Assembly: GCF_006345805.1 (NCBI RefSeq)
Contig: NC_043000.1
Span: 115,816,001 to 115,880,000 of the forward strand
Source: Octopus sinensis
Taxonomy: Eukaryota
Length of the DNA: 64,000 nucleotides
Direction: 5' to 3'
Made by a program: the position numbers and the translations under genes. The notes under the pieces were generated by a model. It worked only from the letters and a program-made list of their open reading frames with translations, searched no databases and was not told where the DNA came from. This document shows, piece by piece, positions 1-56,760 of the stretch. Positions within the stretch are counted from its first letter, which is position 1, and the number at the start of each line of letters is the position of its first letter.

Positions 1-1062
1 TCCCACAAGGCACTGTGTTGGGCCCACTTCTCTTCATCATCTACATAAATGATATTACTGATACCATCAAACACAGTAATATCAGAACCTTCGCTGATGA
101 CTCCAAGCTCCAGAAGGTCATCAATGGCGTGGATGACCGAATAAACCTTCAGTCAGACCTACTGGCTGTTGTCCAATGGGCGGAAAAGAATAACATATTG
201 CTAAATGAAGACAAATTTGAACTGATCCACTTTGGAAGGGAGGACGCTCTGAAACTCCCATACTCTCTTCCTTCTGGAGAAATTCTCATGGCATCCAACA
301 ACATCAGAGACCTGGGAGTAACAGTGGACAACAACATAAGCTGGGCTACACATATAAGCAGCAAAGTTGACATGGCCCGCAGAATGTGTTCCTGGATTCT
401 CAGAACCTTCCAGTCGAGAGATTCCCACGCTATTATCCTTCTCTTCTCCACTTTTGCCGACCACCCCACCTTGAATACTGCTGTCCACTGTGGTCTCCCT
501 ACACAAAACAAAATATTATGAGAATTGAAGCTCCCCAAAGGTCAATCACAAAAATAGATGGCATGTCAGACCTTGACTACTGGGGTAGACTAGAGAAGCT
601 GAAATTGTATTCACTCCAACGACGCCGTGAACGCTACATTATCTGTATGATGTGGAAAATATTCCACCAGCACTGTCCGAATGATGTTGGCATCACCTTC
701 AAAATGCATCCAAGGCTTGGACCACGTGCCATCCGTCCACAACAAAAATCTAAATCGCATCACATAACGACAATACGGCACAACTATTTCACCTCAATTG
801 GACATGCTCTCTTCAACATTACACCAGGGCACGTCAAAAAAGAAACTGACCACACAAAATTCAAGAAGTCTTTGGACAAATTCCTTCAAACAGTACTGGA
901 CAAACCACCCACACCCGGATATGTCTCCGCAAACAATAACTCTCTGCTCGAATGGGCCTTGGTGCCCAAATCCTGAACTGAAAGACTTCACCAGGTGGTG
1001 CTATTAAGTTAGACATGGCCTGGGCCAATACTGGCCAAAACCTTTCTAAGTTATTCTAAGTT
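1..1062 (+). mobile_element. 3' end of a CR1/L2/Jockey-group LINE (RT C-terminus, frameshifted near 460, then 3' UTR and short-repeat tail)
   Basis: PQGTVLGPLLFIIYIND and FADDSKL RT motifs. The ORF continues in another frame (PHLEYCCPLWSP...LYSLQRRRER) to a stop at 976. The tail is tctaagtta-t-tctaagtta. Confidence 0.9.
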
Positions 1063-8480: not shown

Positions 8481-8796
8481 ATAGTTATATCTATATATAT
8501 AATAAAAAAGGGTAAATAATTTTTTCGTGGTTTTTTAGACAACCAACAATTATTTACCGGTAAATTTCGGTAAATAATATATATATATTTGAGTAGTTGA
8601 ATGAATTATCTTATTAAGGATGATTCGAAAGATAACCGATACCTGGGTAGCAAATTCACATCAGAAAGAACACGGTTGAAGTTACGTCCCTAGGGCATAG
8701 ACTACGTGCTTTCGTGCGGAAATTTGTATGTTTATTTTAAAATTATAAGTATATGAAAGAATGGAGTTGAACGACTTGTTAACAAATTTCCTTTAT

Positions 8797-8877
8797 TTTC
8801 GACATATGTTTCGAAGGCTGCATATTCCTAATTCCGAAGGAATATGGAGTACATTATGCAGATTTCTCATCAGGAAA
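8797..8877 (-). ncRNA. Type I hammerhead ribozyme, family A
   Basis: Reverse complement is tttc-CTGATGA-long stem II-GAAA-catatg-TC-gaaa. Confidence 0.8.
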
Positions 8878-8966
8878 GGCAAGGAACTTATGTCGACATC
8901 AAAATGCACAAAAACTTTTAGCTGAAAGTTTTTTGTGCATTTTGATGTCGACATAAGTTCCTTGCC

Positions 8967-9047
8967 TTTCCTGATGAGAAATCTGCATAATGTACTCCTT
9001 ATTCCTTCGGAATTAGGAATATGCAGCCTTCGAAACATATGTCGAAA
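8967..9047 (+). ncRNA. Type I hammerhead ribozyme, family A
   Basis: tttc CTGATGA g..ctgcata..tatgcag..c GAAA catatg TC gaaa. Confidence 0.8.
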
Positions 9048-9096
9048 ATAAAGGAAATTTGTTAACAAGTCGTTCAACTCCGTTCTTTCATATACT

Positions 9097-9127
<31 letters not shown>

Positions 9128-10077: not shown

Positions 10078-10583
10078 CGGTACTTAATTTATCGACCCCG
10101 AAAGGATGAACGGCAAAGTCGACCTCGGCGAAATTTGAACTCAGAACGTAACGACAGACGAAATACCTATTTGTTTACTACCCACAAGGGGCTAAACACA
10201 GAGAGGATAAACAAGGACAGACAAACGGATTAAGTCGATTATATCGACCCCAGTGCGTAACCGGTACTTATTTCATCGACCTCAAAAGGATGAAAGGCAA
10301 AGTCGAATTCGGCAGAATTTGAACTCAGAATGTCACGGCAGACGAAATACCTATTTCTTTATTACCCACAAGGGGCTAAACATAGAGGGGACAAACAAGG
10401 ACAGACATAGGTATTAAGTCGATTACATCGACCCCAGTGCGTAACTGGTGCTTAATTTATCGACCCCAAAAGGATGAAAGGCGAAGTCGACCTCGGCGGA
10501 ATTTGAACTCAGAACGTAACGGCAGACGAAATACCGCTTAGCATTTCGCCCGGCGTGCTAACGTTTCAGCCAGCTCGCCGCCT
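10078..10583 (-). mobile_element. tRNA-derived SINE family 2, tandemly amplified (~184 bp period)
   Basis: Head ggcggcgagctgg..gttagc / gagttcaaattcc (A/B box) at the right end; body repeated about 2.7 times. Confidence 0.85.
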
Positions 10584-13385: not shown

Positions 13386-13620
13386 GGCGGCGAGCTGGCA
13401 GAAACGTTAGCACGCCGGGCGAAATGCCTAGCCGTATTTCGTCTGCCGTTACGTTCTGAGTTCAAATTCCGCCGAGGTCGACTTTGCCTTTCATCCTCTC
13501 GGGGTCGATAGATTAAGTACCAGTTACGTTCTGGGGTCGTTATAATCGACTTAATCCGTTTGTCTGTCCTTGTTTGTTCTCTCTGTGTTTAGCCCCTTGT
13601 GGGTAGTAAAGAAATAGGTT
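13386..13620 (+). mobile_element. tRNA-derived SINE family 2, complete monomer
   Basis: A/B box head, gcctttcatcct..ggggtcgat body, gccccttgtgggtagtaaagaaat tail. Confidence 0.85.
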
Positions 13621-14032
13621 TCGATTTCCGGAACAGGCAAGGCATTGGGTTCTTGAGCAAGATACTTCATTTCACTCCAGTCCATTTTTTGTATTTTGAA
13701 TATATTTTAACTCTTTAACAAACATATGTCGATGGAGTGCCAAGTAGCCACGAACGAATTCCGCTGATAAACAAAAACGTAGCCCCTCAACAACTTCTGT
13801 TTCACAAGATACATAATAAAGGCACGCTTGGCTGTGTAGTAAGAAGCTTGCTTCCCAACTACATAGTTCCGGGTTCAGTCGCACTGCATGGCACCTTGGG
13901 CAAGTGTCTTCTACTATTGCCTCGGGCCGACTAAAGCCTTCTGAGTGGATTTTGTAGACGGAAACTGAAAGAAGCCCGTCGTGTGTATGTATATATATAT
14001 AAAGTGTAGGTGGCATACGAGTGGGTATATAT

Positions 14033-14359
14033 TTATAAAAAAGAAGTTTGAAAACGCCACTATGTAAGATAAATTTTAATTTTCTGAGAGATTTTACATG
14101 TTTCGGTTCTTGAAAAAACGAACCTTATCACTATTATAGCCAACGATTCTAGTTACCGCGCAAGATAGCCATTATGCTCCCCCCACCTCAAAACACCACC
14201 ACGTGGACTCTGTTGAGACTAGTAAGAAACAATTATGAACTTATTTATTACACTTAACTTTTAAAAATATTTATGAAAAGGCTCGTTTTTTGAAGAAGAA
14301 CCGAAGCATGTAAAATCTCTCAGAAAATTAAAATTTATCTTATAAAGTTTTCAAAACTT

Positions 14360-14365
<6 letters not shown>
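14033..14365. repeat. Inverted pair of degenerate hammerhead-like pLTR fragments
   Basis: 14033-14130 and 14270-14365 are reverse complements. ggttc..gaacc-GAAA-catg-TA-aaat with a decayed core. Confidence 0.55.
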
Positions 14366-14399
<34 letters not shown>

Positions 14400-14551
14400 G
14401 TAAATATAAGAGAGTTACCACTATGTGGTCGACTCTAGCACTAAAAATAGATCCGCTAGGTTTCAGCCACGAAGAATTGTTTCCGATGAAAGTTAGCACG
14501 ACTATTAGCGTAAACGAACAGGGCAAATAAAGAATAACAAAAGTGCAGATT

Positions 14552-14630
14552 AATTCAGGACAATTGTTTCGTTATTAATAAATTATGCAATTTTACTCAC
14601 ACAACATATCCGTATCTCCTCAGCTGAATT
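14552..14630 (-). ncRNA. Type I hammerhead ribozyme, array unit 1
   Basis: aattcag-CTGAGGA-gata..taac-GAAA-caattg-TC-ctgaatt, with a 7 bp stem I. Confidence 0.85.
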
Positions 14631-15044
14631 TGTCTAGAATACAATTTACTCAACCGCATGCCAGATTTTACCATAACAATAAACACACATGCGGTTCAGT
14701 CGATTGCATTCACCGTTATAATTCAAGTGCCCCCGCCAAAATCACGGAAACAGATACTACATCAAAAATTAAATGCAGCATAATTACAATCAACTAATAA
14801 GGGTGAGAAAAGTGGATACTAATTAATAGTACCATCTTTTAACACCAAGTGGCTTAGTGCATAAAAGACCAGGAATATAATAAATTTTATACGTAAATAT
14901 AAGAGAGTTACCACTATGTGGTCGACTCTAGCACTAAAAATAGATCCGCTAGGTTTCAGCCACGAAGAATTGTTTCCGATGAAAGTTAGCACGACTATTA
15001 GCGTAAACGAACAGGGCAAATAAAGAATAACAAAAGTGCAGATT

Positions 15045-15123
15045 AATTCAGGACAATTGTTTCGTTATTAATAAATTATGCAATTTTACTCACACAACAT
15101 ATCCGTATCTCCTCAGCTGAATT
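15045..15123 (-). ncRNA. Type I hammerhead ribozyme, array unit 2
   Basis: Same as unit 1. Confidence 0.85.
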
Positions 15124-15537
15124 TGTCTAGAATACAATTTACTCAACCGCATGCCAGATTTTACCATAACAATAAACACACATGCGGTTCAGTCGATTGC
15201 ATTCACCGTTATAATTCAAGTGCCCCCGCCAAAATCACGGAAACAGATACTACATCAAAAATTAAATGCAGCATAATTACAATCAACTAATAAGGGTGAG
15301 AAAAGTGGATACTAATTAATAGTACCATCTTTTAACACCAAGTGGCTTAGTGCATAAAAAACCAGGAATATAATAAATTTTATACGTAAATATAAGAGAG
15401 TTACCACTATGTGGTCGACTCTAGCACTAAAAATAGATCCGCTAGGTTTCAGCCACGAAGAATTGTTTCCGATGAAAGTTAGCACGACTATTAGCGTAAA
15501 CGAACAGGGCAAAGAAAGAATAACAAAAGTGCAGATT

Positions 15538-15616
15538 AATTCAGGACAATTGTTTCGATATTAATAAATTATGCAATTTTACTCACACAACATATCCGTA
15601 TCTCCTCAGCTGAATT
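15538..15616 (-). ncRNA. Type I hammerhead ribozyme, array unit 3
   Basis: Same as unit 1, with a perfect gata/tatc stem II base. Confidence 0.88.
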
Positions 15617-15795
15617 TGTCTAGAATACAATTTACTCAACCGCATGCCAAATTTTACCATAATGATAAACACACATGCGGTTCAGTCGATTGCATTCACC
15701 GTTATAATTCAAGTGCCCCCGCCAGAGCCCGCCAAAATTCACGGAAACAGATACTACATCAAAAATTAAATGCAGCATAATTACAATCAACTAGT

Positions 15796-15856
<61 letters not shown>

Positions 15857-20778: not shown

Positions 20779-20832
<54 letters not shown>

Positions 20833-20999
20833 GAGTAGTGAATGATTATCTTATTGATAATTCGGTTAACGATACCAAGGGGTAGCATTCCCCGTCAGAA
20901 AAACACGGTTGAAGCTACATGCCTAGGGCAGAAATCACGTAAGTACATTTTAGATAAATACATACCTATATAAATCAATAAGTTAAAACTCAGCCTATG

Positions 21000-22938
21000 G
21001 TCTAGCTCCACTCAAGTCGTAGAGTGCTTTTCTTCTATTACTAATAAGGACAGCACAAACTTCATTCAATTCCATATATCTAGTTTCTACCCTTCGATAA
21101 ACCCTAGTGCACTCAATAAGGCCCTATGGCACGCACATAATAAGGCAGGCCTCTCAAGGGAGGAAATTCATGTAATTTTAGCGGCTAGAAAATCCTTCAT
21201 AAAGTTCGATGATAAGTTATGGGTCCGCAGGGAAACCTCCAACGCGTTCGGTGTACTAATGGGAAGTACAGATAGCGCCCAGATACCCGATTTGGTCGGA
21301 ATCTATATTCTCTATGAATTGGCCGACTAATTCCCGGACATCTGCGGCGGTCTGTATCGAGACGATTGTCTACTTTACCTACAGAATGCTCCGAACAATA
21401 TGATACAGAAGACTAAAAACAGATTAGCTAGATTTTTTAGCAGAATGGGCTTGAGCATAGTTTTCGACGACGAATTAACTAAAGCCAACTTCTTAGATGT
21501 TACCCTAAATCTGCAGAATAATTCTTACTTCCCTTATCATAAGCCTTCTACTAATCTTAAATATATCAGCATTTTCAGTAACCATGCCAAAACTATCACC
21601 GATAATTTAGTTAAAAATATATCATTAAGACTATCAAATTTATCTGCTAATGTCGACATCTTTAACCAAAAAGCGGAATTTTATAACGCCGCCTTGTCAA
21701 AAGCCGGTTATAGAGATAAAGTATCATATATCGACCCGGCCCATTCTAAACCGATATATGCTTCTCAGGATAAGAAAGCTAATAACAATAGAAATAATGT
21801 AATAATGATTTCAGCTCTAACAACGTCGACACCACTACAACTAAACAAAATATTTACGGACCAAGGGAGGCAATCGGAAACAACAAAAATTCTCCAACAC
21901 AGAAATACTCCCTTTAATGTAAATGTTAACACTCTGAACTATTTTAAGTCCAAAAAAAACTATATCTGGTTTGTCATTCCTTTCGGGAAACAAATCAGGT
22001 CTAACCTCCCTTTACAGTTCCGTGAAGCCATAGCTAGAAACTTTCTCAGGAATTCTAGGTATTACTCTACTATCAATTCGCATAAGGTAAGGATTGCATT
22101 CTCCAACACTAGTAATCTATCGCAGATCATTGCCTCCCATAATAACAAGCTGCTAAATAAGGACTCATCACCCGGGAGTAGCGACACTGCCCTTACCAAT
22201 TCCAACCAAACATACAATAATAATAATAATAGAAATAGTATTGATAATAGCAACATTCATAACAGCGTTGGCATTAACAATAGTAATATTAATAATAATA
22301 TTAGTCGGATTATTAACAGTGGTAGTGTTAGTGGTAATAACGACAGCATTCCCAATAACAGTGGTAGTATTGATGATAACAACCCCAGCATTCCTATAGT
22401 CAGGGAAATTACCGACGATAGTACAATTAATAGTAATGATAATAATATAAATAGTATTGTGGTTAATGCTAGCAATAATATTAACACCAATCATAACAAT
22501 AAAAACTCCGTCTTAGTCTCGGAGGTAAACCCTAACAGATTAAAGTTCTTATCCAGCAATTCCAAAATTAGAAATTCCATTTACCAGTGCAAAATTTCTT
22601 CTGGTACCGATGTCTTCTTCTACATTGGGGCAACTACTTCTAAATTAGCACACAGGATCTCCAACCATTATTCAACTTTCCGAGATAAGAGAAAACAACA
22701 CAGCACAGGACTAAGTAAAATAATTTGGCGTCTTAAGGACAGCAATACAACTTTCAAGCTGGAATGGTCCATATTGTCTGTATCCTTTCCGTTTGATAAG
22801 GGCAGAAAATTTTGTGGCGTCTGTAATTCCGAACTTTTCCATATTTTGTTCGCCAAAGTCCCTTTAATAAATACAATGGTCGAGAAATCCTATAGATGCA
22901 TGCACTGGCAAAAACACACCTTTCACTCATATGAATAA
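21000..22938 (+). pseudogene. Penelope RT + GIY-YIG endonuclease ORF (in-frame TAA at 21328; open 21331-22938)
   Basis: YRDD, NFLDVTLNL..Y.PYHKP, SIYQCKI..YIGAT..RISNH, CGVC..E and RCMH motifs. Confidence 0.88.
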
Positions 22939-23487
22939 TGATTAATATAGATAACCTCCTTGAATTTTAATAATATAGTCCCATTTATATTTAACCCCAT
23001 AGTCAATTTTTATACTCTTAAAGGACTACTACCCAACCCTTTGTCTCTCTAACTCGCCCTCCTCTCTCTCTCTCTCTTTCCCTCTCTCTATCGTAAGCAC
23101 AATCAAACACACAGACACAAACCAGTCACTTCACCATTGTCTGTTTTTGGCATCTACCCATCCACACACACAATCACGCACACACATACACACACATAGC
23201 CATTAATGCAGTTATATACATACACACACATAGGCACTCATTCACAAAAGAAAACAACAAAATCACCATTCATTTGACCTGCACCCTTTCACCTTCCTAT
23301 TCTTAGGTCTCTCTCCTCCAACCTTGTTTGAACCCTTGAACCTTCTAGAATCTTCTACATTCAACCATTTTTGACGTCACTGCTTATAACGGAATATTTT
23401 AAAGAAACACTCATTACCGCTATGGGTTCCGTGTGGGCAGTCATCTAAAAGTTTTTGTGCATCTTGATGCTGACATAAGTTCCTTGT

Positions 23488-23570
23488 TTTTCCTGATGAG
23501 AAAGCGGCATAATGCACCCCTTATTCCTTCGAAATTAGCAATATGCAGCCTTCGAAACATATGTCGAAAA
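23488..23570 (+). ncRNA. Type I hammerhead ribozyme, family A, in the PLE pLTR
   Basis: ttttc-CTGATGA..GAAA-catatg-TC-gaaaa. Confidence 0.8.
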
Positions 23571-23627
23571 TAAAGGAATTTTGTTAATTCGTCGTTCAAC
23601 TCCATTCTTTCATTTATATATATATAG

Positions 23628-28559: not shown

Positions 28560-29180
28560 AGGCGGCGAGCTGGCAGAAGCGTTAGCACGCCGGGTGAAAT
28601 GCTTAGCGGTGTTTCGTCTGCCGCTACGTTCTGAGTTCAAATTCCGCCAAAGTCGACTTTACTTTTCATCATTTCGGGGTCAATAAATTAAGTACCAGTT
28701 ACGCACTGGGGTCGATATAATTGACTTAATCCGTTTGTCTGTCCTTGTTTGGCCCCTCTATGTTTAGCCCCTTGTGGGCAGTAAAGAAATAGTATTCCGT
28801 CTGCCACTATGTTCTGAGTTCAAATTCTGCCGGGGTCGAGTAAATAAGTACCAGTTACGCATTGGGGTCGATATAATCAACTTAATCCATTTGTCTCTCC
28901 TTGTTTGCCCCTTCTGTGTTTAGCCCCTTGCGGGTAGTAAAGAAATAGGTATTTCGTCCGTCGTTACGTTCTGAGTTCAAATTCCGCCGACGTCGACTTT
29001 GCCTTTCATCCTTTCCGGGTCGATTAAATAAGTACCAGTTACGCACTGGGGTCGATGTAATCGACTTAATCCGTTTGACTGTCCTTGTTTGTCCCTTCTG
29101 AGTTTAGCCCCTTGTGGGTAGTAAAGAAATAGGCATTTCGTCTGCCGTTCCGTTCTGAGTTCAAATTCCGCCGAGATCGA
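28560..29180 (+). mobile_element. SINE family 2 tandem array
   Basis: One head and about 3 body repeats. Confidence 0.85.
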
Positions 29181-38041: not shown

Positions 38042-38999
38042 GAACCTCCACCCTGAATGGAACGACGCTCAGTCGTAGGGTTACTCATTTAGAGCTGTGT
38101 GAATCGGAGCAACATGAAATGAAGTGTTTTGCTCAAGATAACAATGAACCGCCCAGTTCGGGGATCGAAACCACGATCTTGCGTGCAGCACCTCTAACCA
38201 CTAAGTGACGGGGCTTCTGTGTGGAGTACTATGATAAATTAATTCACCCACACACTTCCCGAATATTCAAGGCTTAATGCTTAAAGTAGAAAGCATGATA
38301 TCCTACTAATATCCATTATAAACTGGACAAATATTTTCGTGGTGATCACATATTTTAGGGTTGCTTTAGTAATAAATCTGCGAAATGCATTTCAGAGACA
38401 TTAAGTACGTGCCTAAAATGGCGTTTTCCGTTAAGACTAGAATATCTACCCCAATTTCCTGGAGTAGAATTCATCTGAGAGGTTTAGACTCGGTTTCACT
38501 TTCTTCATTATACTGTATCTCTATTATTGTGAACGTTCACGAAATCAGGATATGTTGCAAAGAATTTTCATTTCAACTTATATCAGGTATTCTTTTCTGG
38601 GAAGAAAGAATACACTTTGGGCGGTCATTTTGTTTAAATGTTCAGCGTTTCTATTATGTAAGTAGCTGTTTGTTGAATTGAATAATGCTAGCCAACAAAA
38701 TATTAATCCATTATATAGTGTTACACCTACTAGAAGCAATGAATGATTACCTCTTTAGTTTCTATACAGTGTGATGGAAACTGCATCTGTCAGAGTCGAC
38801 GAAGAAGTAAGATGGCCGCAAGATAAGATAATGACGCCCTGCTAGAAATAGTAAACAGATGTTACTCAAAATCGTATACTACTACATTAAACAAAAATAG
38901 ATTTATAATATATTGGGCAAGCTAGTCTATGATAAGTAAAAAACGGGAATACCATTGCTGGAATACACGTACATATTAAATATATGTATGTGTGCATGT

Positions 39000-39570
39000 G
39001 TTTACTAAGCCCCTCACTAACGCAACGCCTCCTGCTAATTTAGGTACGGACCTGAATAATAATTGCTCCCCACAATACAACATGGACATACATACACCTA
39101 ATTATTTATGCGGCTGTAGGGATAGAATAAAGTGTCATTTCTCAAATAGATGTAAGACAAATAGCGTAGTTTGCCAATGTGACGTCCACACAAACAACCA
39201 GACGAAATCATACATAGGTGCAACAAAGAACCAAATGATTCTCAGATATAATACGCGTGTATCCAGCTTCAGAAATAGGAATAAGGCTAACTCAAGAGGG
39301 TTAAGTGTATATATTTGGGAACTTAAGGATAAAAAATAGATTTTAGCTTAAACTGGCGTATACTCACAAAAACAACCTCCTACAACACCGCCTCCTAACC
39401 TATGCATCTATCTATATTCGCATTCTGAAGAGATTTACTTAAACCAGTAAATCGAAACGATCGTAAATGCTACCCTCATCTCTGCTTCTTCCTTCTTTGT
39501 TATCTATTTAATTAAAGACATGTCAGCGTAAACCACGAGTTTCCCTTGTTATTATATCCATTTTCTTCTC

Positions 39571-39663
<93 letters not shown>

Positions 39664-39950
39664 GGGTATGAGTATGAGTAAGTATCCATGGGTATGAGTA
39701 AGTATCTCATTTATTTCTTTTGCGACATGTATCACTGACGAAGAGAGGGCTCTTAGTAGCTAACTCTGAAATCGGTCCGATATAGTAATAATGGAATTTT
39801 TTAGAAATTTCTGTCGACCTTTTTTCGAGTAGCGTGCGTATTATGAAAAAATTATATGGTTAATGGACAATATGTCCAATTTTTCGGCATATATGGCATT
39901 AGAAATTTTTTCCTTTGCCCTCATTTATGAATTGTTTATAAATTTAACCG
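39000..39950 (+). mobile_element. Degraded Naiad-type PLE 3' end (GIY-YIG EN + pLTR)
   Basis: CGCRDRIKCHFSNRC..VVCQCDV..SYIGAT..RY..SSF..GLSVYIWELKDK, followed by an HHR at 39730. Confidence 0.8.
39730..39782 (+). ncRNA. Hammerhead ribozyme (CTGACGA core)
   Basis: tatca-CTGACGA-agag..ctct-GAAA-tcgg-TC-cgata. Confidence 0.7.
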
Positions 39951-40019
39951 TTAAAGGTATTTTTTAATATGCTGGCCATTGATAAATATTTTTTTCGAAA
40001 AGAATTTTATCCTCACATT

Positions 40020-40070
<51 letters not shown>

Positions 40071-52165: not shown

Positions 52166-52200
<35 letters not shown>

Positions 52201-52202
<2 letters not shown>

Positions 52203-53627
52203 GATAAATATCAAAGTGAGTTATATACAGTAGCGGTAACACATCGTGATGTATTTTTGCCATTTCAATATGGCTAACCCCTAAGGGTGGATGCTACTGT
52301 AGTTTTTAGCCCCAGGAGGACACACTCCTCCAGCTGGCCATAGACACACTATCTGTGTCCTGTCAGTATTTGCAAAGGGAAGTCATCCTTCCCGTCTTCA
52401 ACTTATGATACACACGGACTCGAGTTTCGAGGTATTGACCTCTCGTCATCGTGTGACAATCATAGTTGTCGCCGAGAATTAGATTTCCTTCACAAATACT
52501 TATACTTTTTCCAGCGCCCACTGTCGCTGATATTGAAAAAGTGAAATCAAACAATGATAAATATCAAAGTGAGTTATATACAGTAGCGGTAACACATCGT
52601 GATGTATTTTTGCCATTTCAATATGGCTAACCCCTAAGGGTGGATGCTACTGTAGTTTTTAGCCCCAGGAGGACACACTCCTCCAGCTGGCCATAGACAC
52701 ACTATCTGTGTCCTGTCAGTATTTGCAAAGGGAAGTCATCCTTCCCGTCTTCAACTTATGATACACACGGACTCGAGTTTCGAGCTATGGACCTCTCGTC
52801 ATCGTGTGACAATCATAGTTGTCGCCGAGAATTAGATTTCCTTCACAAATACTTATACTTTTTCCAGCGCCCACTGTCGCTGATATTGAAAAAGTGAAAT
52901 CAAACAATGATAAATATCAAAGTGAGTTATATACAGTAGCGGTAACACATCGTGATGTATTTTTGCCATTTCAATATGGCTAACCCCTAAGGGTGGATGC
53001 TACTGTAGTTTTTAGCCCCATGAGGACACACTCCTCCAGCTGGCCATAACACACTATCTGTGTCCTGTCAGTATTGCAAAGGGAAGTCATCCTCCCGTCT
53101 TCAACTTATGATACACAGGACTCGAGTTTCGAGCTATTGACCTCTCGTCATCGTGTGACAATCATAGTTGTCGCCGAGAATTAGATTTCTTCACAAATAC
53201 TTATACTTTTTCCAGCGCCCACTGTCTGATATTGAAAAATTGAAATCACAATGATAAATATCAAGTGTTTATATACAGTGCGGTACACACCGCTACTGGT
53301 AACTCACTTTGATATTTATCATGTTTGATTTCACTTTTTCATATCAGCGACAGTGGGCGCTGGAAAAAGTATAAGTATTGTGAAGGAAATCTAATTCTCG
53401 GCGACATCTATGATTGTCACACGATGACGAGAGGTCAATACCTCGAAACTCGAGTCCATGTGTATCATAAGTTGAAGACGGGAAGGATGACTTCCCTTTG
53501 CAAATACTGACAGGACACAGATAGTGTGTCTATGGCCAGCTGGAGGAGTGTGTCCTCCTGGGGCTAAAAACTACAGTAGCATCCACCCTTAGGGGTTAGC
53601 CATATTGAAATGGCAAAAATACATCAC
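52201..53627. mobile_element. 353 bp tandem array (3 units + partial) followed by one inverted unit; retrozyme-like
   Basis: Unit starts at 52201, 52554, 52907 and ~53251; inversion near 53290; one HHR motif per unit. Confidence 0.88.
52411..52455 (-). ncRNA. Hammerhead variant (ATGACGA core); further copies at 52764-52808(-), 53114-53157(-) and 53418-53462(+)
   Basis: cacacg-ATGACGA-gagg-tcaata-cctc-GAAA-ctcgag-TC-cgtgtg. Confidence 0.78.
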
Positions 53628-53768
53628 TATATATATATATATATATATTATATATACATACATATATCACAGTATCAAAATATCGACCAGACAATCAGAT
53701 GCTGTTATACACCTCTGGTCACAATGCGTTTCCATTTTCGTCTTGATTAGGCAAAAATGTGTGTGTAT

Positions 53769-56124: not shown

Positions 56125-56760
56125 ATGGCAGAACCGATAGCACGCCGGGCAAAATGCTTAGCGGTATTTCGTCTGCCGTTACGTTCTGAGTTTAAATTCC
56201 GCCGAGGACGACTTTGCCTTTCATCCTTTCGGGGTCGATAAATTAGATACCAGTTACGCACTGGTGTCGATGTAATCGACTTAATACCTATGTCTGACCT
56301 TGTTTGTCCCCTCTATGTTTAGCCCCTTGTGGGTAATAAAGAAATAGGTATTTTGTCGGTTGAAGGCGGCGAGCTGGCAGAAACGTTAGCACGCCGGGCG
56401 AAATGCTTAGCGATATTTCCTCTGCCGTTACGTTGTGAGTTCAAATTTCGCCGAGGTCGATTTTGCCTTTCATCCTTTCGGGGTCGGTTAAATAACTACC
56501 AGTTACGCACTGCAGTCGATATAATCGACTTAATCAGTTTGTATGTCCTTGTTTGTCCTCTCTGTGTTTAGCTCCTTGTGGGTAGTAAAGAAATAGGTAT
56601 TTCGTCTGTCTTTACGTTCTGAGTTCAAATTCTGCCGAGGTTGACTTTGCTTTTCATCCTTTCGGGGTCGATAAATTAAGTACCTGTAGCGTGCTGGGGT
56701 CGATCTAATCGACTGGCCCCCTCCTCCAAAATTTCCGTCCTCGTGCCTAGAGTAGAAAAG
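56125..56760 (+). mobile_element. SINE family 2 tandem cluster
   Basis: Two heads and three bodies. Confidence 0.85.

What the first reader, a model, noticed from the sequence alone, without database searches (positions are those of the whole stretch)
14397..15793. Young 493 bp tandem array with one canonical hammerhead per unit (non-LTR retrozyme candidate)
Seen: about 2.8 almost identical non-coding units. Each has a minus-strand HHR with a perfect 7 bp stem I (aattcag/ctgaatt), intact CTGAGGA/GAAA core, GUC site, palindromic stem III (ACAATTGT) and an unusually long stem II. The array sits inside a (TA)n tract. Established: metazoan non-LTR retrozymes are tandem HHR repeats processed to circular RNAs and thought to be mobilised by Penelope elements. 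Inference: cleavage releases 493 nt monomers or circles, and the non-integer copy number fits rolling-circle reverse transcription.
Basis: partly seen in the sequence, partly recalled or inferred. Interest (0 to 1): 0.82.

Follow-up and report, generated by a model that had tools for sequence, protein, structure and literature searches.

The report
Hammerhead-ribozyme tandem repeat in TA microsatellite
This is a non-coding DNA repeat, each copy carrying a hammerhead (self-cutting RNA) motif, that belongs to a multi-copy family shared by related genomes and was likely pasted into a TA microsatellite by a Penelope-like retrotransposon: a new member of a known kind of parasitic element (retrozyme), probably from an octopus.

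Summary
The array is real: 2.8 copies of a 493-bp non-coding unit between (TA)18 and (TA)28, each with a minus-strand type I hammerhead (Rfam RF00163, 33-36 bits). Contigs of four public runs show a variable multi-copy family with the same head-to-tail ring, and 10 of 11 listed variants inside the ribozyme keep its fold, including a double change in stem II. The RNA 3' end lies 160 nt past the last cut site, against (TA)n; the 5' end carries a short fold-back. Hydra-clade Penelope-like elements insert this way, and broken ones with hammerheads lie in the same window. Best reading (0.75): a non-LTR retrozyme mobilised in trans by Hydra-type RT/endonuclease. Expression, cleavage and circles are untested. 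A coding partner was neither found nor excluded. New member of a known kind.

The parts
14363..14398 (.). (TA)18 tract at the RNA 3' end of the insertion; likely target site; shares TATA with the unit, so the junction is ambiguous by a few bases
14395..14887 (-). unit 1 (3'-most in RNA sense)
14888..15380 (-). unit 2, 1 difference from unit 1
15381..15793 (-). unit 3, 5'-truncated; five events of difference from units 1 and 2, including an 11-nt insertion that other genomes share
14552..14630 (-). type I hammerhead of unit 1; predicted cut after C17 at 14559; stem II mismatch
15045..15123 (-). type I hammerhead of unit 2; predicted cut after 15052; stem II mismatch
15538..15616 (-). type I hammerhead of unit 3; predicted cut after 15545; intact stem II (4 bp, 2x2 loop, long hairpin); passes the Rfam gathering score
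14399..14558 (-). 160-nt tail between the last predicted cut site and the (TA) tract; the genomic 3' end is not at the ribozyme site
15786..15799 (.). 14-bp palindrome at the 5' truncation point: short fold-back (four bases that are neither unit nor TA are the reverse complement of the preceding four)
15798..15853 (.). (TA)28 tract at the RNA 5' end

Best explanation
The array is a non-coding, hammerhead-bearing repeat of a multi-copy family, and is most likely a non-LTR retrozyme that Hydra-clade Penelope-like reverse transcriptase/endonuclease copied into a (TA)n tract. Steps: (1) the minus strand is likely the RNA strand: ribozyme orientation, folding and family variation point to it; transcription is not shown. 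(2) Hammerheads would cut after GUC every 493 nt, probably as dimers through the 8-nt palindrome, giving monomers that a host ligase could close (inferred from coral, mussel and axolotl retrozymes). At this locus only unit 3 is predicted to fold well, so it is likely a poor producer. (3) A Hydra-type enzyme would nick (TA)n and start cDNA synthesis inside the RNA, 160 nt past a cut site, so the template had to be uncut multimer, circle or a chain of monomers (inferred). (4) Synthesis stopped after 2.8 units and left a short fold-back (the palindrome is seen; its cause is inferred). (5) The units derive from at least two family variants. My split for how: uncut transcript of a mixed donor array 0.4, 1.8-unit insertion with later local doubling 0.3, template jump between cut RNAs 0.15, one circle plus later change 0.15.
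For: Hammerhead in each unit. Monomer folds far better than shuffles: z -5.3 linear, 0 of 100 shuffles; circular z -5.2 minus strand against -3.1 plus. One unit laid on four runs took 283, 103, 485 and 68 contigs; the end-to-start joint was found in 4 of 4 runs; overlapping pieces tile the ring, including the stretch across both array ends; the share running on into unlike sequence was 0, 0.05, 0.01, 0.01. Of 11 listed variants inside the ribozyme, 10 keep the fold: stem II pair 2 is C-G in over 90% of depth in all four runs against A-U in unit 3; a stem I A-U/G-C pair of changes; four G.U to A-U changes in the long stem; one at N7; one in an internal loop. Hydra signature: 26 of 27 Hydra families listed in Craig et al. 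insert into (TA)n, one is from Octopus, with hammerheads near the 3' end (PMC8557442 section 11, File S1/S2). In 36 of 61 usable coding loci from metagenomes a sense hammerhead follows the ORF, and in 6 of those 36 a TA run follows 43-112 nt after the cut. The window holds two broken Hydra-type ORFs with CxxC/E/N/CxH or CxCX5C motifs and 3' hammerheads 48 and about 110 nt before TA. Fold-back or inverted 5' ends occur here, in X1 contigs and in neighbours. Internal RT initiation away from the hammerhead is shown for another Penelope-like element (PMC11167929).
Against: No expression, cleavage or circle shown; no holder is on record as RNA. No nucleotide similarity between the unit and any Hydra element held: window elements E > 0.3, 78 metagenome loci best E 0.10, no ribozyme-motif hit in the Craig supplement. 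So the partner is inferred from anatomy alone, and Naiad elements also favour (TA)n in Octopus. Units 1 and 2 have a broken stem II; their active fold costs about 5 kcal/mol against 2.7 for unit 3. In Xenopus only 1 of 9 tested dimers cleaved (bioRxiv 2026.07.22.740005). One of the 11 ribozyme variants (15046) breaks a stem I pair unless an unlisted change restores it. Variants are unphased, only 40 of 87 were shown, and the four runs share most sites, so they are not independent. Contigs are short and only 24 of 165 loose ends were shown, so a rare join to an ORF would be missed. The host name rests on one protein hit at 58%.
Confidence: 0.75

Rival explanations
1. The unit is the 3' end (pseudo-LTR) of a coding Hydra-type element, and the array is a set of 5'-truncated tandem ends copied in cis, not an independent non-autonomous family.
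For: Coding Hydra elements in the window leave ORF-less, hammerhead-bearing 3' fragments in TA tracts (8744-9108 matches the 3' end of the 20974-23615 element at 88-89%). That element also has a long stem II (54 nt) with a basal 2x2 loop and an 8-nt palindromic stem III. In Xenopus 24 of 57 retrozyme families match known repeats, nearly all Penelope-like ends.
Against: The ring closes without an ORF in 4 of 4 runs, at most 0.05 of what was laid runs into unlike sequence, and the loose ends shown mostly look like divergent unit sequence (read by eye). No ORF remnant in the unit. None of the 78 coding loci has a non-coding hammerhead tandem of period 100 or more (one 100-bp repeat inside an ORF), though many are short contigs.
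Confidence: 0.13
2. One or two units were inserted long ago and the array grew by DNA-level duplication (unequal crossing-over or slippage); at this locus the ribozyme is a decaying passenger in a minisatellite.
For: Units 1 and 2 are almost identical and share a stem-II-breaking change that unit 3 lacks. Local amplification of Penelope-like ends is proposed in bioRxiv 2026.07.22.740005.
Against: It does not explain the family: head-to-tail joints, compensatory changes and a strand-biased transition pattern (T>C 13-15 of 132 against A>G 5-6 of 189 places, p 0.004-0.016) in other genomes point to selection on the RNA. It can explain the unit 1/unit 2 doubling, which the best explanation allows.
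Confidence: 0.09
3. The tandem is a long-read assembly duplication.
For: Units 1 and 2 differ by one base in an A-run. The 353-bp array in the same window shows scattered small deletions in one unit, typical of poorly polished long reads. No raw reads of this individual were available.
Against: Unit 3's insertion and the head-to-tail joint exist in four independent runs. Unit 3's differences are substitutions and a family variant, not read-error-like deletions. At most the extra middle unit could be artefactual.
Confidence: 0.03

Closest known systems
Metazoan non-LTR retrozymes (Acropora, Mytilus, axolotl; Cervera and de la Pena 2020, PMC7229834)
   Same: Non-coding tandem unit with one type I hammerhead, GC below 45%, strongly self-paired monomer in which stem I can form, palindromic stem III, co-existence with Penelope-like elements.
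   Different: Unit of 493 bp is above the 150-450 bp range given there (within the 51-972 bp range of the 2026 preprint). Stem II is extended to 46 nt in place of a short loop 2. Insertion into (TA)n with a fold-back end is not described in the text I read. Circular RNA is shown there, not here.
Hydra-clade Penelope-like elements, incl. Hydra-1_Obim of Octopus bimaculoides (Craig et al. 2021, PMC8557442)
   Same: (TA)n target, sense hammerhead shortly before the 3' end, 5' truncation with an inverted piece.
   Different: No ORF; no detectable sequence similarity (Hydra-1_Obim 3' end compared by eye). Stem II region 46 nt against 10-25 nt in 36 of 36 coding loci. 3' end 160 nt past the cut against 43-112 nt.
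Xenopus retrozymes derived from Penelope-like pLTRs (Li, Clavereau, Pollet, bioRxiv 10.64898/2026.07.22.740005)
   Same: Meets their working definition in outline (tandem repeat with a hammerhead motif in consecutive units); short arrays are the norm there.
   Different: They show homology to named pLTRs in frogs; none found here. No mollusc was among the taxa named in the text.
Non-autonomous Chlamys elements such as MRC1 (Craig et al. 2021)
   Same: Non-coding head-to-tail insertions mobilised by a Penelope-like partner.
   Different: Green algal; 3' ends match their autonomous families; most Chlamys lack canonical hammerheads.

Membership tests
Type I hammerhead ribozyme (RF00163) | Conserved core with three stems and an NUH site | tested here: met
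   unit 3 35.9 bits above gathering 34; units 1 and 2 33.1, just below, with a stem II mismatch
Type I hammerhead ribozyme (RF00163) | Structure-preserving variation across copies | tested here: met
   10 of 11 listed variants in the motif keep the fold; unphased, 40 of 87 variants shown
Type I hammerhead ribozyme (RF00163) | Self-cleavage at the GUC; loop 1-loop 2 tertiary contact | not testable with these tools
   Needs in vitro assay; stem II is extended, so the usual terminal loop 2 is absent
Metazoan non-LTR retrozyme | Tandem units with one type I hammerhead each | tested here: met
   head-to-tail joint in 4 of 4 runs
Metazoan non-LTR retrozyme | No protein coding, no LTR/PBS/PPT, GC below 45-50% | tested here: met
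   Longest open stretch 82 codons; GC 35%; no LTR layout seen; tRNA primer site not searched explicitly
Metazoan non-LTR retrozyme | Highly self-paired monomer | tested here: met
   z -5.3, circular z -5.2; the plus strand also scores -3.1
Metazoan non-LTR retrozyme | Multi-copy family independent of a coding element | tested here: inconclusive
   Multi-copy and ring-closed in four runs; ORF joins not seen but not excluded; no genome held
Metazoan non-LTR retrozyme | Expressed as linear and circular monomer RNA | not testable with these tools
   No holder on record as RNA; only contigs available
Hydra-clade Penelope-like element (autonomous) | Single ORF with RT and C-terminal GIY-YIG endonuclease | tested here: not met
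   No ORF in the array; it is not an autonomous Hydra element
Hydra-clade Penelope-like element (as mobiliser) | (TA)n target, hammerhead near the 3' end, inverted piece at the 5' end | tested here: met
   runs of (TA)8 or more and their edges cover 4.6% of the window; Naiads share the target
Hydra-clade Penelope-like element (as mobiliser) | Sequence homology to the 3' end of an autonomous family | tested here: inconclusive
   None in the window, in 78 metagenome loci or in the Craig supplement; host genome not searchable

The most novel reading that the evidence does not exclude
Octopus genomes carry several retrozyme families that are passengers of Hydra-clade enzymes, and their arrays are built not by rolling round one circle but by the reverse transcriptase jumping between ribozyme-cut RNAs, so that variant boundaries fall at the hammerhead site (4 of the 5 unit-3 differences lie 5' of the first cut). 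In the boldest form the A-to-G excess on the RNA strand records ADAR editing of the template written back into the genome.
Probability: 0.13. Interest if true: 0.68.

Novelty: new member of a known kind. Interest (0 to 1): 0.38.

Why it matters
Which autonomous element moves animal retrozymes, and whether arrays arise from circles, are open: a 2020 review says the repeats show no motif that reveals the mobiliser (PMC7761336, passage). Here target site and end anatomy point to one clade, a second unrelated array in the same 64 kb shows the same anatomy, and mixed units give a genome-only test of the rolling-circle model. No cephalopod retrozyme turned up in my paper searches, and the part of a 2026 Octopus vulgaris repeat annotation I searched never uses the word ribozyme. 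The kind of element is established, so the gain is a new lineage, an unusually long stem II and a testable mechanism, not a new category.

Tried and rejected
No host genome was held, so copy number, empty sites and ORF joins could not be counted. Rfam gathering-mode scan: 0 hits, a filter miss. Sequencing runs: no RNA holder listed; run X8 is only guessed to be RNA and its variant pattern resembles the DNA runs, so I take it as no evidence on expression either way. A ribozyme pattern scan of metagenome contigs found 0 matches. Pfam found no family for four window ORF fragments (0 of 4); the Hydra assignment rests on motifs and on a profile match to metagenome proteins (E 1.5e-28), not on a tree. 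A U-rich motif I thought I saw downstream of Hydra hammerheads was not enriched (TTGT 10 of 36 downstream, 15 of 36 upstream, shuffled mean 7.9): rejected. RNA polymerase III boxes: one loose A-box per strand, no B-box: no promoter identified. ADAR reading: A/G against U/C differences on the RNA strand give only p 0.02-0.06 per run, and p 0.24 for listed non-CpG sites; tolerance of G.U pairs explains the same bias; kept only as a weak lead. Outside the ribozyme the listed variants support the predicted fold little: 11 of 16 paired sites kept on the minus strand against 7.6 expected for single changes, and most of the kept ones are in the ribozyme. A second protein search to fix the host gave no octopus name. 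Three look-ups of earlier findings returned nothing. 17 of 78 metagenome loci were dropped for having under 150 nt after the ORF. The supplement of PMC7229834 could not be read and that of the 2026 preprint was not seen; either might list cephalopod repeats.

Full report
OBSERVATION. The array is there as described: 14395-15793, period 493, 2.8 copies, between (TA)18 and (TA)28. Each unit has a minus-strand type I hammerhead with 7-bp stem I, CUGAGGA and GAAA boxes, an 8-nt palindromic stem III, a GUC site and a 46-nt stem II region. Rfam RF00163 scores the three at 33.1, 33.1 and 35.9 bits against a gathering score of 34; the fast whole-window scan missed them. A strict motif search gave one hit in 60 shuffled windows. 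The unit is 35% GC and has no stop-free stretch above 82 codons. The monomer folds with z -5.3; as a circle z is -5.2 on the minus strand and -3.1 on the plus strand.

THE UNITS ARE NOT EQUAL. Units 1 and 2 differ at 1 of 493 bases. Unit 3 differs from both by five events: three single substitutions, one double substitution and an 11-nt insertion. One of them decides the ribozyme: the second pair of stem II is A-U in unit 3 and A.A in units 1 and 2. In a fold of the whole array the four basal stem II pairs have probability 0.7-0.8 in unit 3 and 0.00-0.04 in the others; stem I forms in all (0.7-0.9). Stem III hardly forms within one ribozyme (0.01), while two palindromes pair at -6.4 kcal/mol. 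This fits the dimer mode described for metazoan hammerheads (PMC4209133, parts 1-2 of 4 read; PMC7229834, body read).

IT IS A FAMILY. Twenty listed runs from ten studies and four coded organisms hold part of the stretch, none half or more of its words. One unit laid on four of them (X1, X2, X4, X8; contigs only, 80% likeness) took 283, 103, 485 and 68 contigs, most under 95% identical. The joint from the end of the unit back to its start appears in 4 of 4 runs. Listed pieces overlap all round the ring, also across the 90 bases that link the two array ends. The share running on into unlike sequence is 0-0.05. An 11-nt insertion at unit 3's site is present in all four runs, so it is a family variant and not a read error. 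Eleven of the 40 listed variants (47 more not shown) fall in the ribozyme. Positions 15108 and 15065 both carry another base in over 90% of depth in all four runs, which makes stem II pair 2 a C-G: a double change against unit 3's A-U. 15118 and 15050 turn a stem I A-U into G-C; four changes turn G.U into A-U in the long stem; one is at N7, the free core position; one is in an internal loop. One (15046) breaks a pair unless an unlisted change restores it. Transitions are strand-biased (T>C 13-15 of 132 places, A>G 5-6 of 189; p 0.004-0.016, runs not independent), as expected if the minus strand is a structured RNA that tolerates G.U pairs. The variants are unphased and depth is no copy number.

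INSERTION ANATOMY. In RNA sense the insertion ends 160 nt past the last cut site, directly against (TA)n, not at the ribozyme. It begins inside unit 3 with a 14-bp palindrome. Contigs of X1 show another fold-back-like loose end and an opposite-strand joint. The same window holds six more hammerhead-bearing insertions next to TA runs, two of them degenerate and read by eye: a 5'-truncated RT-endonuclease element (ORF 20974-22938 with one stop, hammerhead 23488-23570); an inverted pair of its 3' end (8744-9108); a second endonuclease fragment (38980-39570); a fragment at 39660-40020; an old inverted pair sharing the array's left TA tract (14026-14362); and a 353-bp tandem array with an inverted arm (52200-53630). 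The two ORFs carry the motifs that Craig et al. give for the Hydra clade: CxCX5C linker in one, CxxC and CxH around the conserved E and N in the other (PMC8557442 sections 6, 11, 15 and passages read). Their supplement lists (TA)n for 26 of 27 Hydra families, among them Hydra-1_Obim from Octopus bimaculoides, with the hammerhead near the 3' end (parts 2, 52, 53 read). The best protein hit of the larger ORF is an Octopus sinensis protein at 58%; with the TA-rich landscape and SINE-like repeats I recall from octopus genomes (no call), the host is probably an octopus. As a comparison set I fetched 78 coding loci of this type from metagenomes. Of 61 with enough 3' sequence, 36 have a sense hammerhead 73-494 nt after the ORF; stem II regions are 10-25 nt; 2 of 36 have an 8-nt stem III; 6 of 36 show a TA run 43-112 nt after the cut. 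The array's long stem II and 8-nt palindrome are thus unusual in that set, but the window's own coding element shares both (54 nt). No nucleotide similarity links the unit to any of these.

MECHANISM. Shown: sequence, ribozyme motif, family, ring closure, target and ends. From established work: retrozyme RNAs self-cleave and are closed by RtcB-type ligase (PMC7229834); a Penelope-like protein nicks AT-rich DNA and starts reverse transcription inside its RNA, with no need for hammerhead cleavage in vitro (PMC11167929, parts 1-3 of 4 read); frog retrozymes derive from Penelope-like ends, and 1 of 9 dimers cleaved (bioRxiv 10.64898/2026.07.22.740005, parts 1-3 of 5 read). Inferred: a Hydra-type enzyme nicked (TA)n, primed 160 nt past a cut site, copied 2.8 units and ended with a fold-back. 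A cut linear monomer alone would give only 160 nt, so the template was a multimer, a circle or a chain of RNAs. One circle predicts three equal units that then drift independently. Instead all five events sit on unit 3 (p about 0.012 if each could fall on any unit), and at least one is a variant found in other genomes. I therefore favour an uncut transcript of a mixed donor array (0.4), then a 1.8-unit insertion with later doubling (0.3), a template jump (0.15; such jumping by R2 enzymes is recalled, only a search listing seen) and a single circle with later change (0.15). Four of the five events lie 5' of the first cut site, which a jump would predict, but one locus cannot decide this.

RIVALS. 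Truncated ends of a coding element (0.13): favoured by the neighbours' behaviour; disfavoured by ring closure without an ORF, not excluded with short contigs and 24 of 165 loose ends shown. Pure DNA-level satellite (0.09): may explain the unit 1/unit 2 doubling but not the family's covariation. Assembly artefact (0.03): the joint and unit 3's variant exist elsewhere; the middle unit alone cannot be verified, and the 353-bp array shows read-error-like deletions.

COMPARISON AND NOVELTY. It works like, and on all features I could test except independence from a coding partner qualifies as, a metazoan non-LTR retrozyme; expression and circles are untested. It is not an autonomous Hydra element. 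Searches for octopus with hammerhead ribozyme, cephalopod with hammerhead and retrozyme and retrozyme with A-to-I editing listed no paper on such a family. A 2026 Octopus vulgaris repeat annotation has no occurrence of 'ribozyme' in its main text (PMC13282606, part 1 of 3 read plus term search). The library lacks most subscription papers and Repbase-type libraries, and the supplement of PMC7229834 was unreadable. A review states that no motif identifies the mobiliser of animal retrozymes (PMC7761336, passages only); insertion anatomy here offers a candidate.

VERDICT. Observation confirmed; interpretation partly supported. New member of a known kind, interest 0.38. The boldest reading, arrays built by jumps between ribozyme-cut RNAs and possibly recording RNA editing, has about 0.13 probability.

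Noticed in passing
window 52200-53630: Second, unrelated tandem array (353 bp x 3.1) followed by an inverted arm, between TA tracts. Each unit has a minus-strand type I hammerhead-like motif with A in place of the conserved C3 in the copies examined, 8-nt palindromic stem III, 3' end about 217 nt past the cut site; circular fold z -6.0. Units vary in stem II; one unit has several small deletions that look like long-read errors.
   Followed up: partly
window 20830-23625: 5'-truncated Hydra-type Penelope-like element on the + strand (RT and C-terminal endonuclease, one in-frame stop at 21328-21330, Asn-rich insert), after a TA tract, with a long-stem-II hammerhead at 23488-23570. Closest protein is annotated 'myb-like protein I' in Octopus sinensis, likely a misannotation.
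   Followed up: partly
window 8570-9124: Inverted pair (176-nt arms, 98% complementary) of the hammerhead-bearing 3' end of the element above, plus about 160 nt that resemble, by eye, the piece before that element's ORF at 20830-20960.
   Followed up: partly
window 38980-39575: 3' fragment of a second Hydra-type family: CxCX5C linker, endonuclease piece, hammerhead 39420-39470 (GUA site), then TA tract.
   Followed up: partly
window 39660-40020: Fragment between two TA tracts with a degenerate hammerhead at 39728-39784.
   Followed up: no
window 14026-14362: Older inverted pair (53-nt arms 94% complementary, longer degenerate arms) with a decayed hammerhead-like motif, sharing the left TA tract with the array; not similar to the 493-bp unit.
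   Followed up: partly
window 371-976: C-terminal fragment of a LINE-like RT ORF; many unnamed relatives at 42-79% identity, no host name gained.
   Followed up: partly
window 10078-10535, 13400-13640, 28833-29174, 56126-56606: Dispersed SINE-like repeats with a 184- or 249-bp tandem internal structure; resemblance to octopus SINEs is recalled, not tested.
   Followed up: no
window 15141-15192 and 14770-14840 (unit 2 frame): Two hairpins outside the ribozyme; the contig depth peaks near them suggest conserved blocks that could be protein-binding or initiation signals.
   Followed up: no
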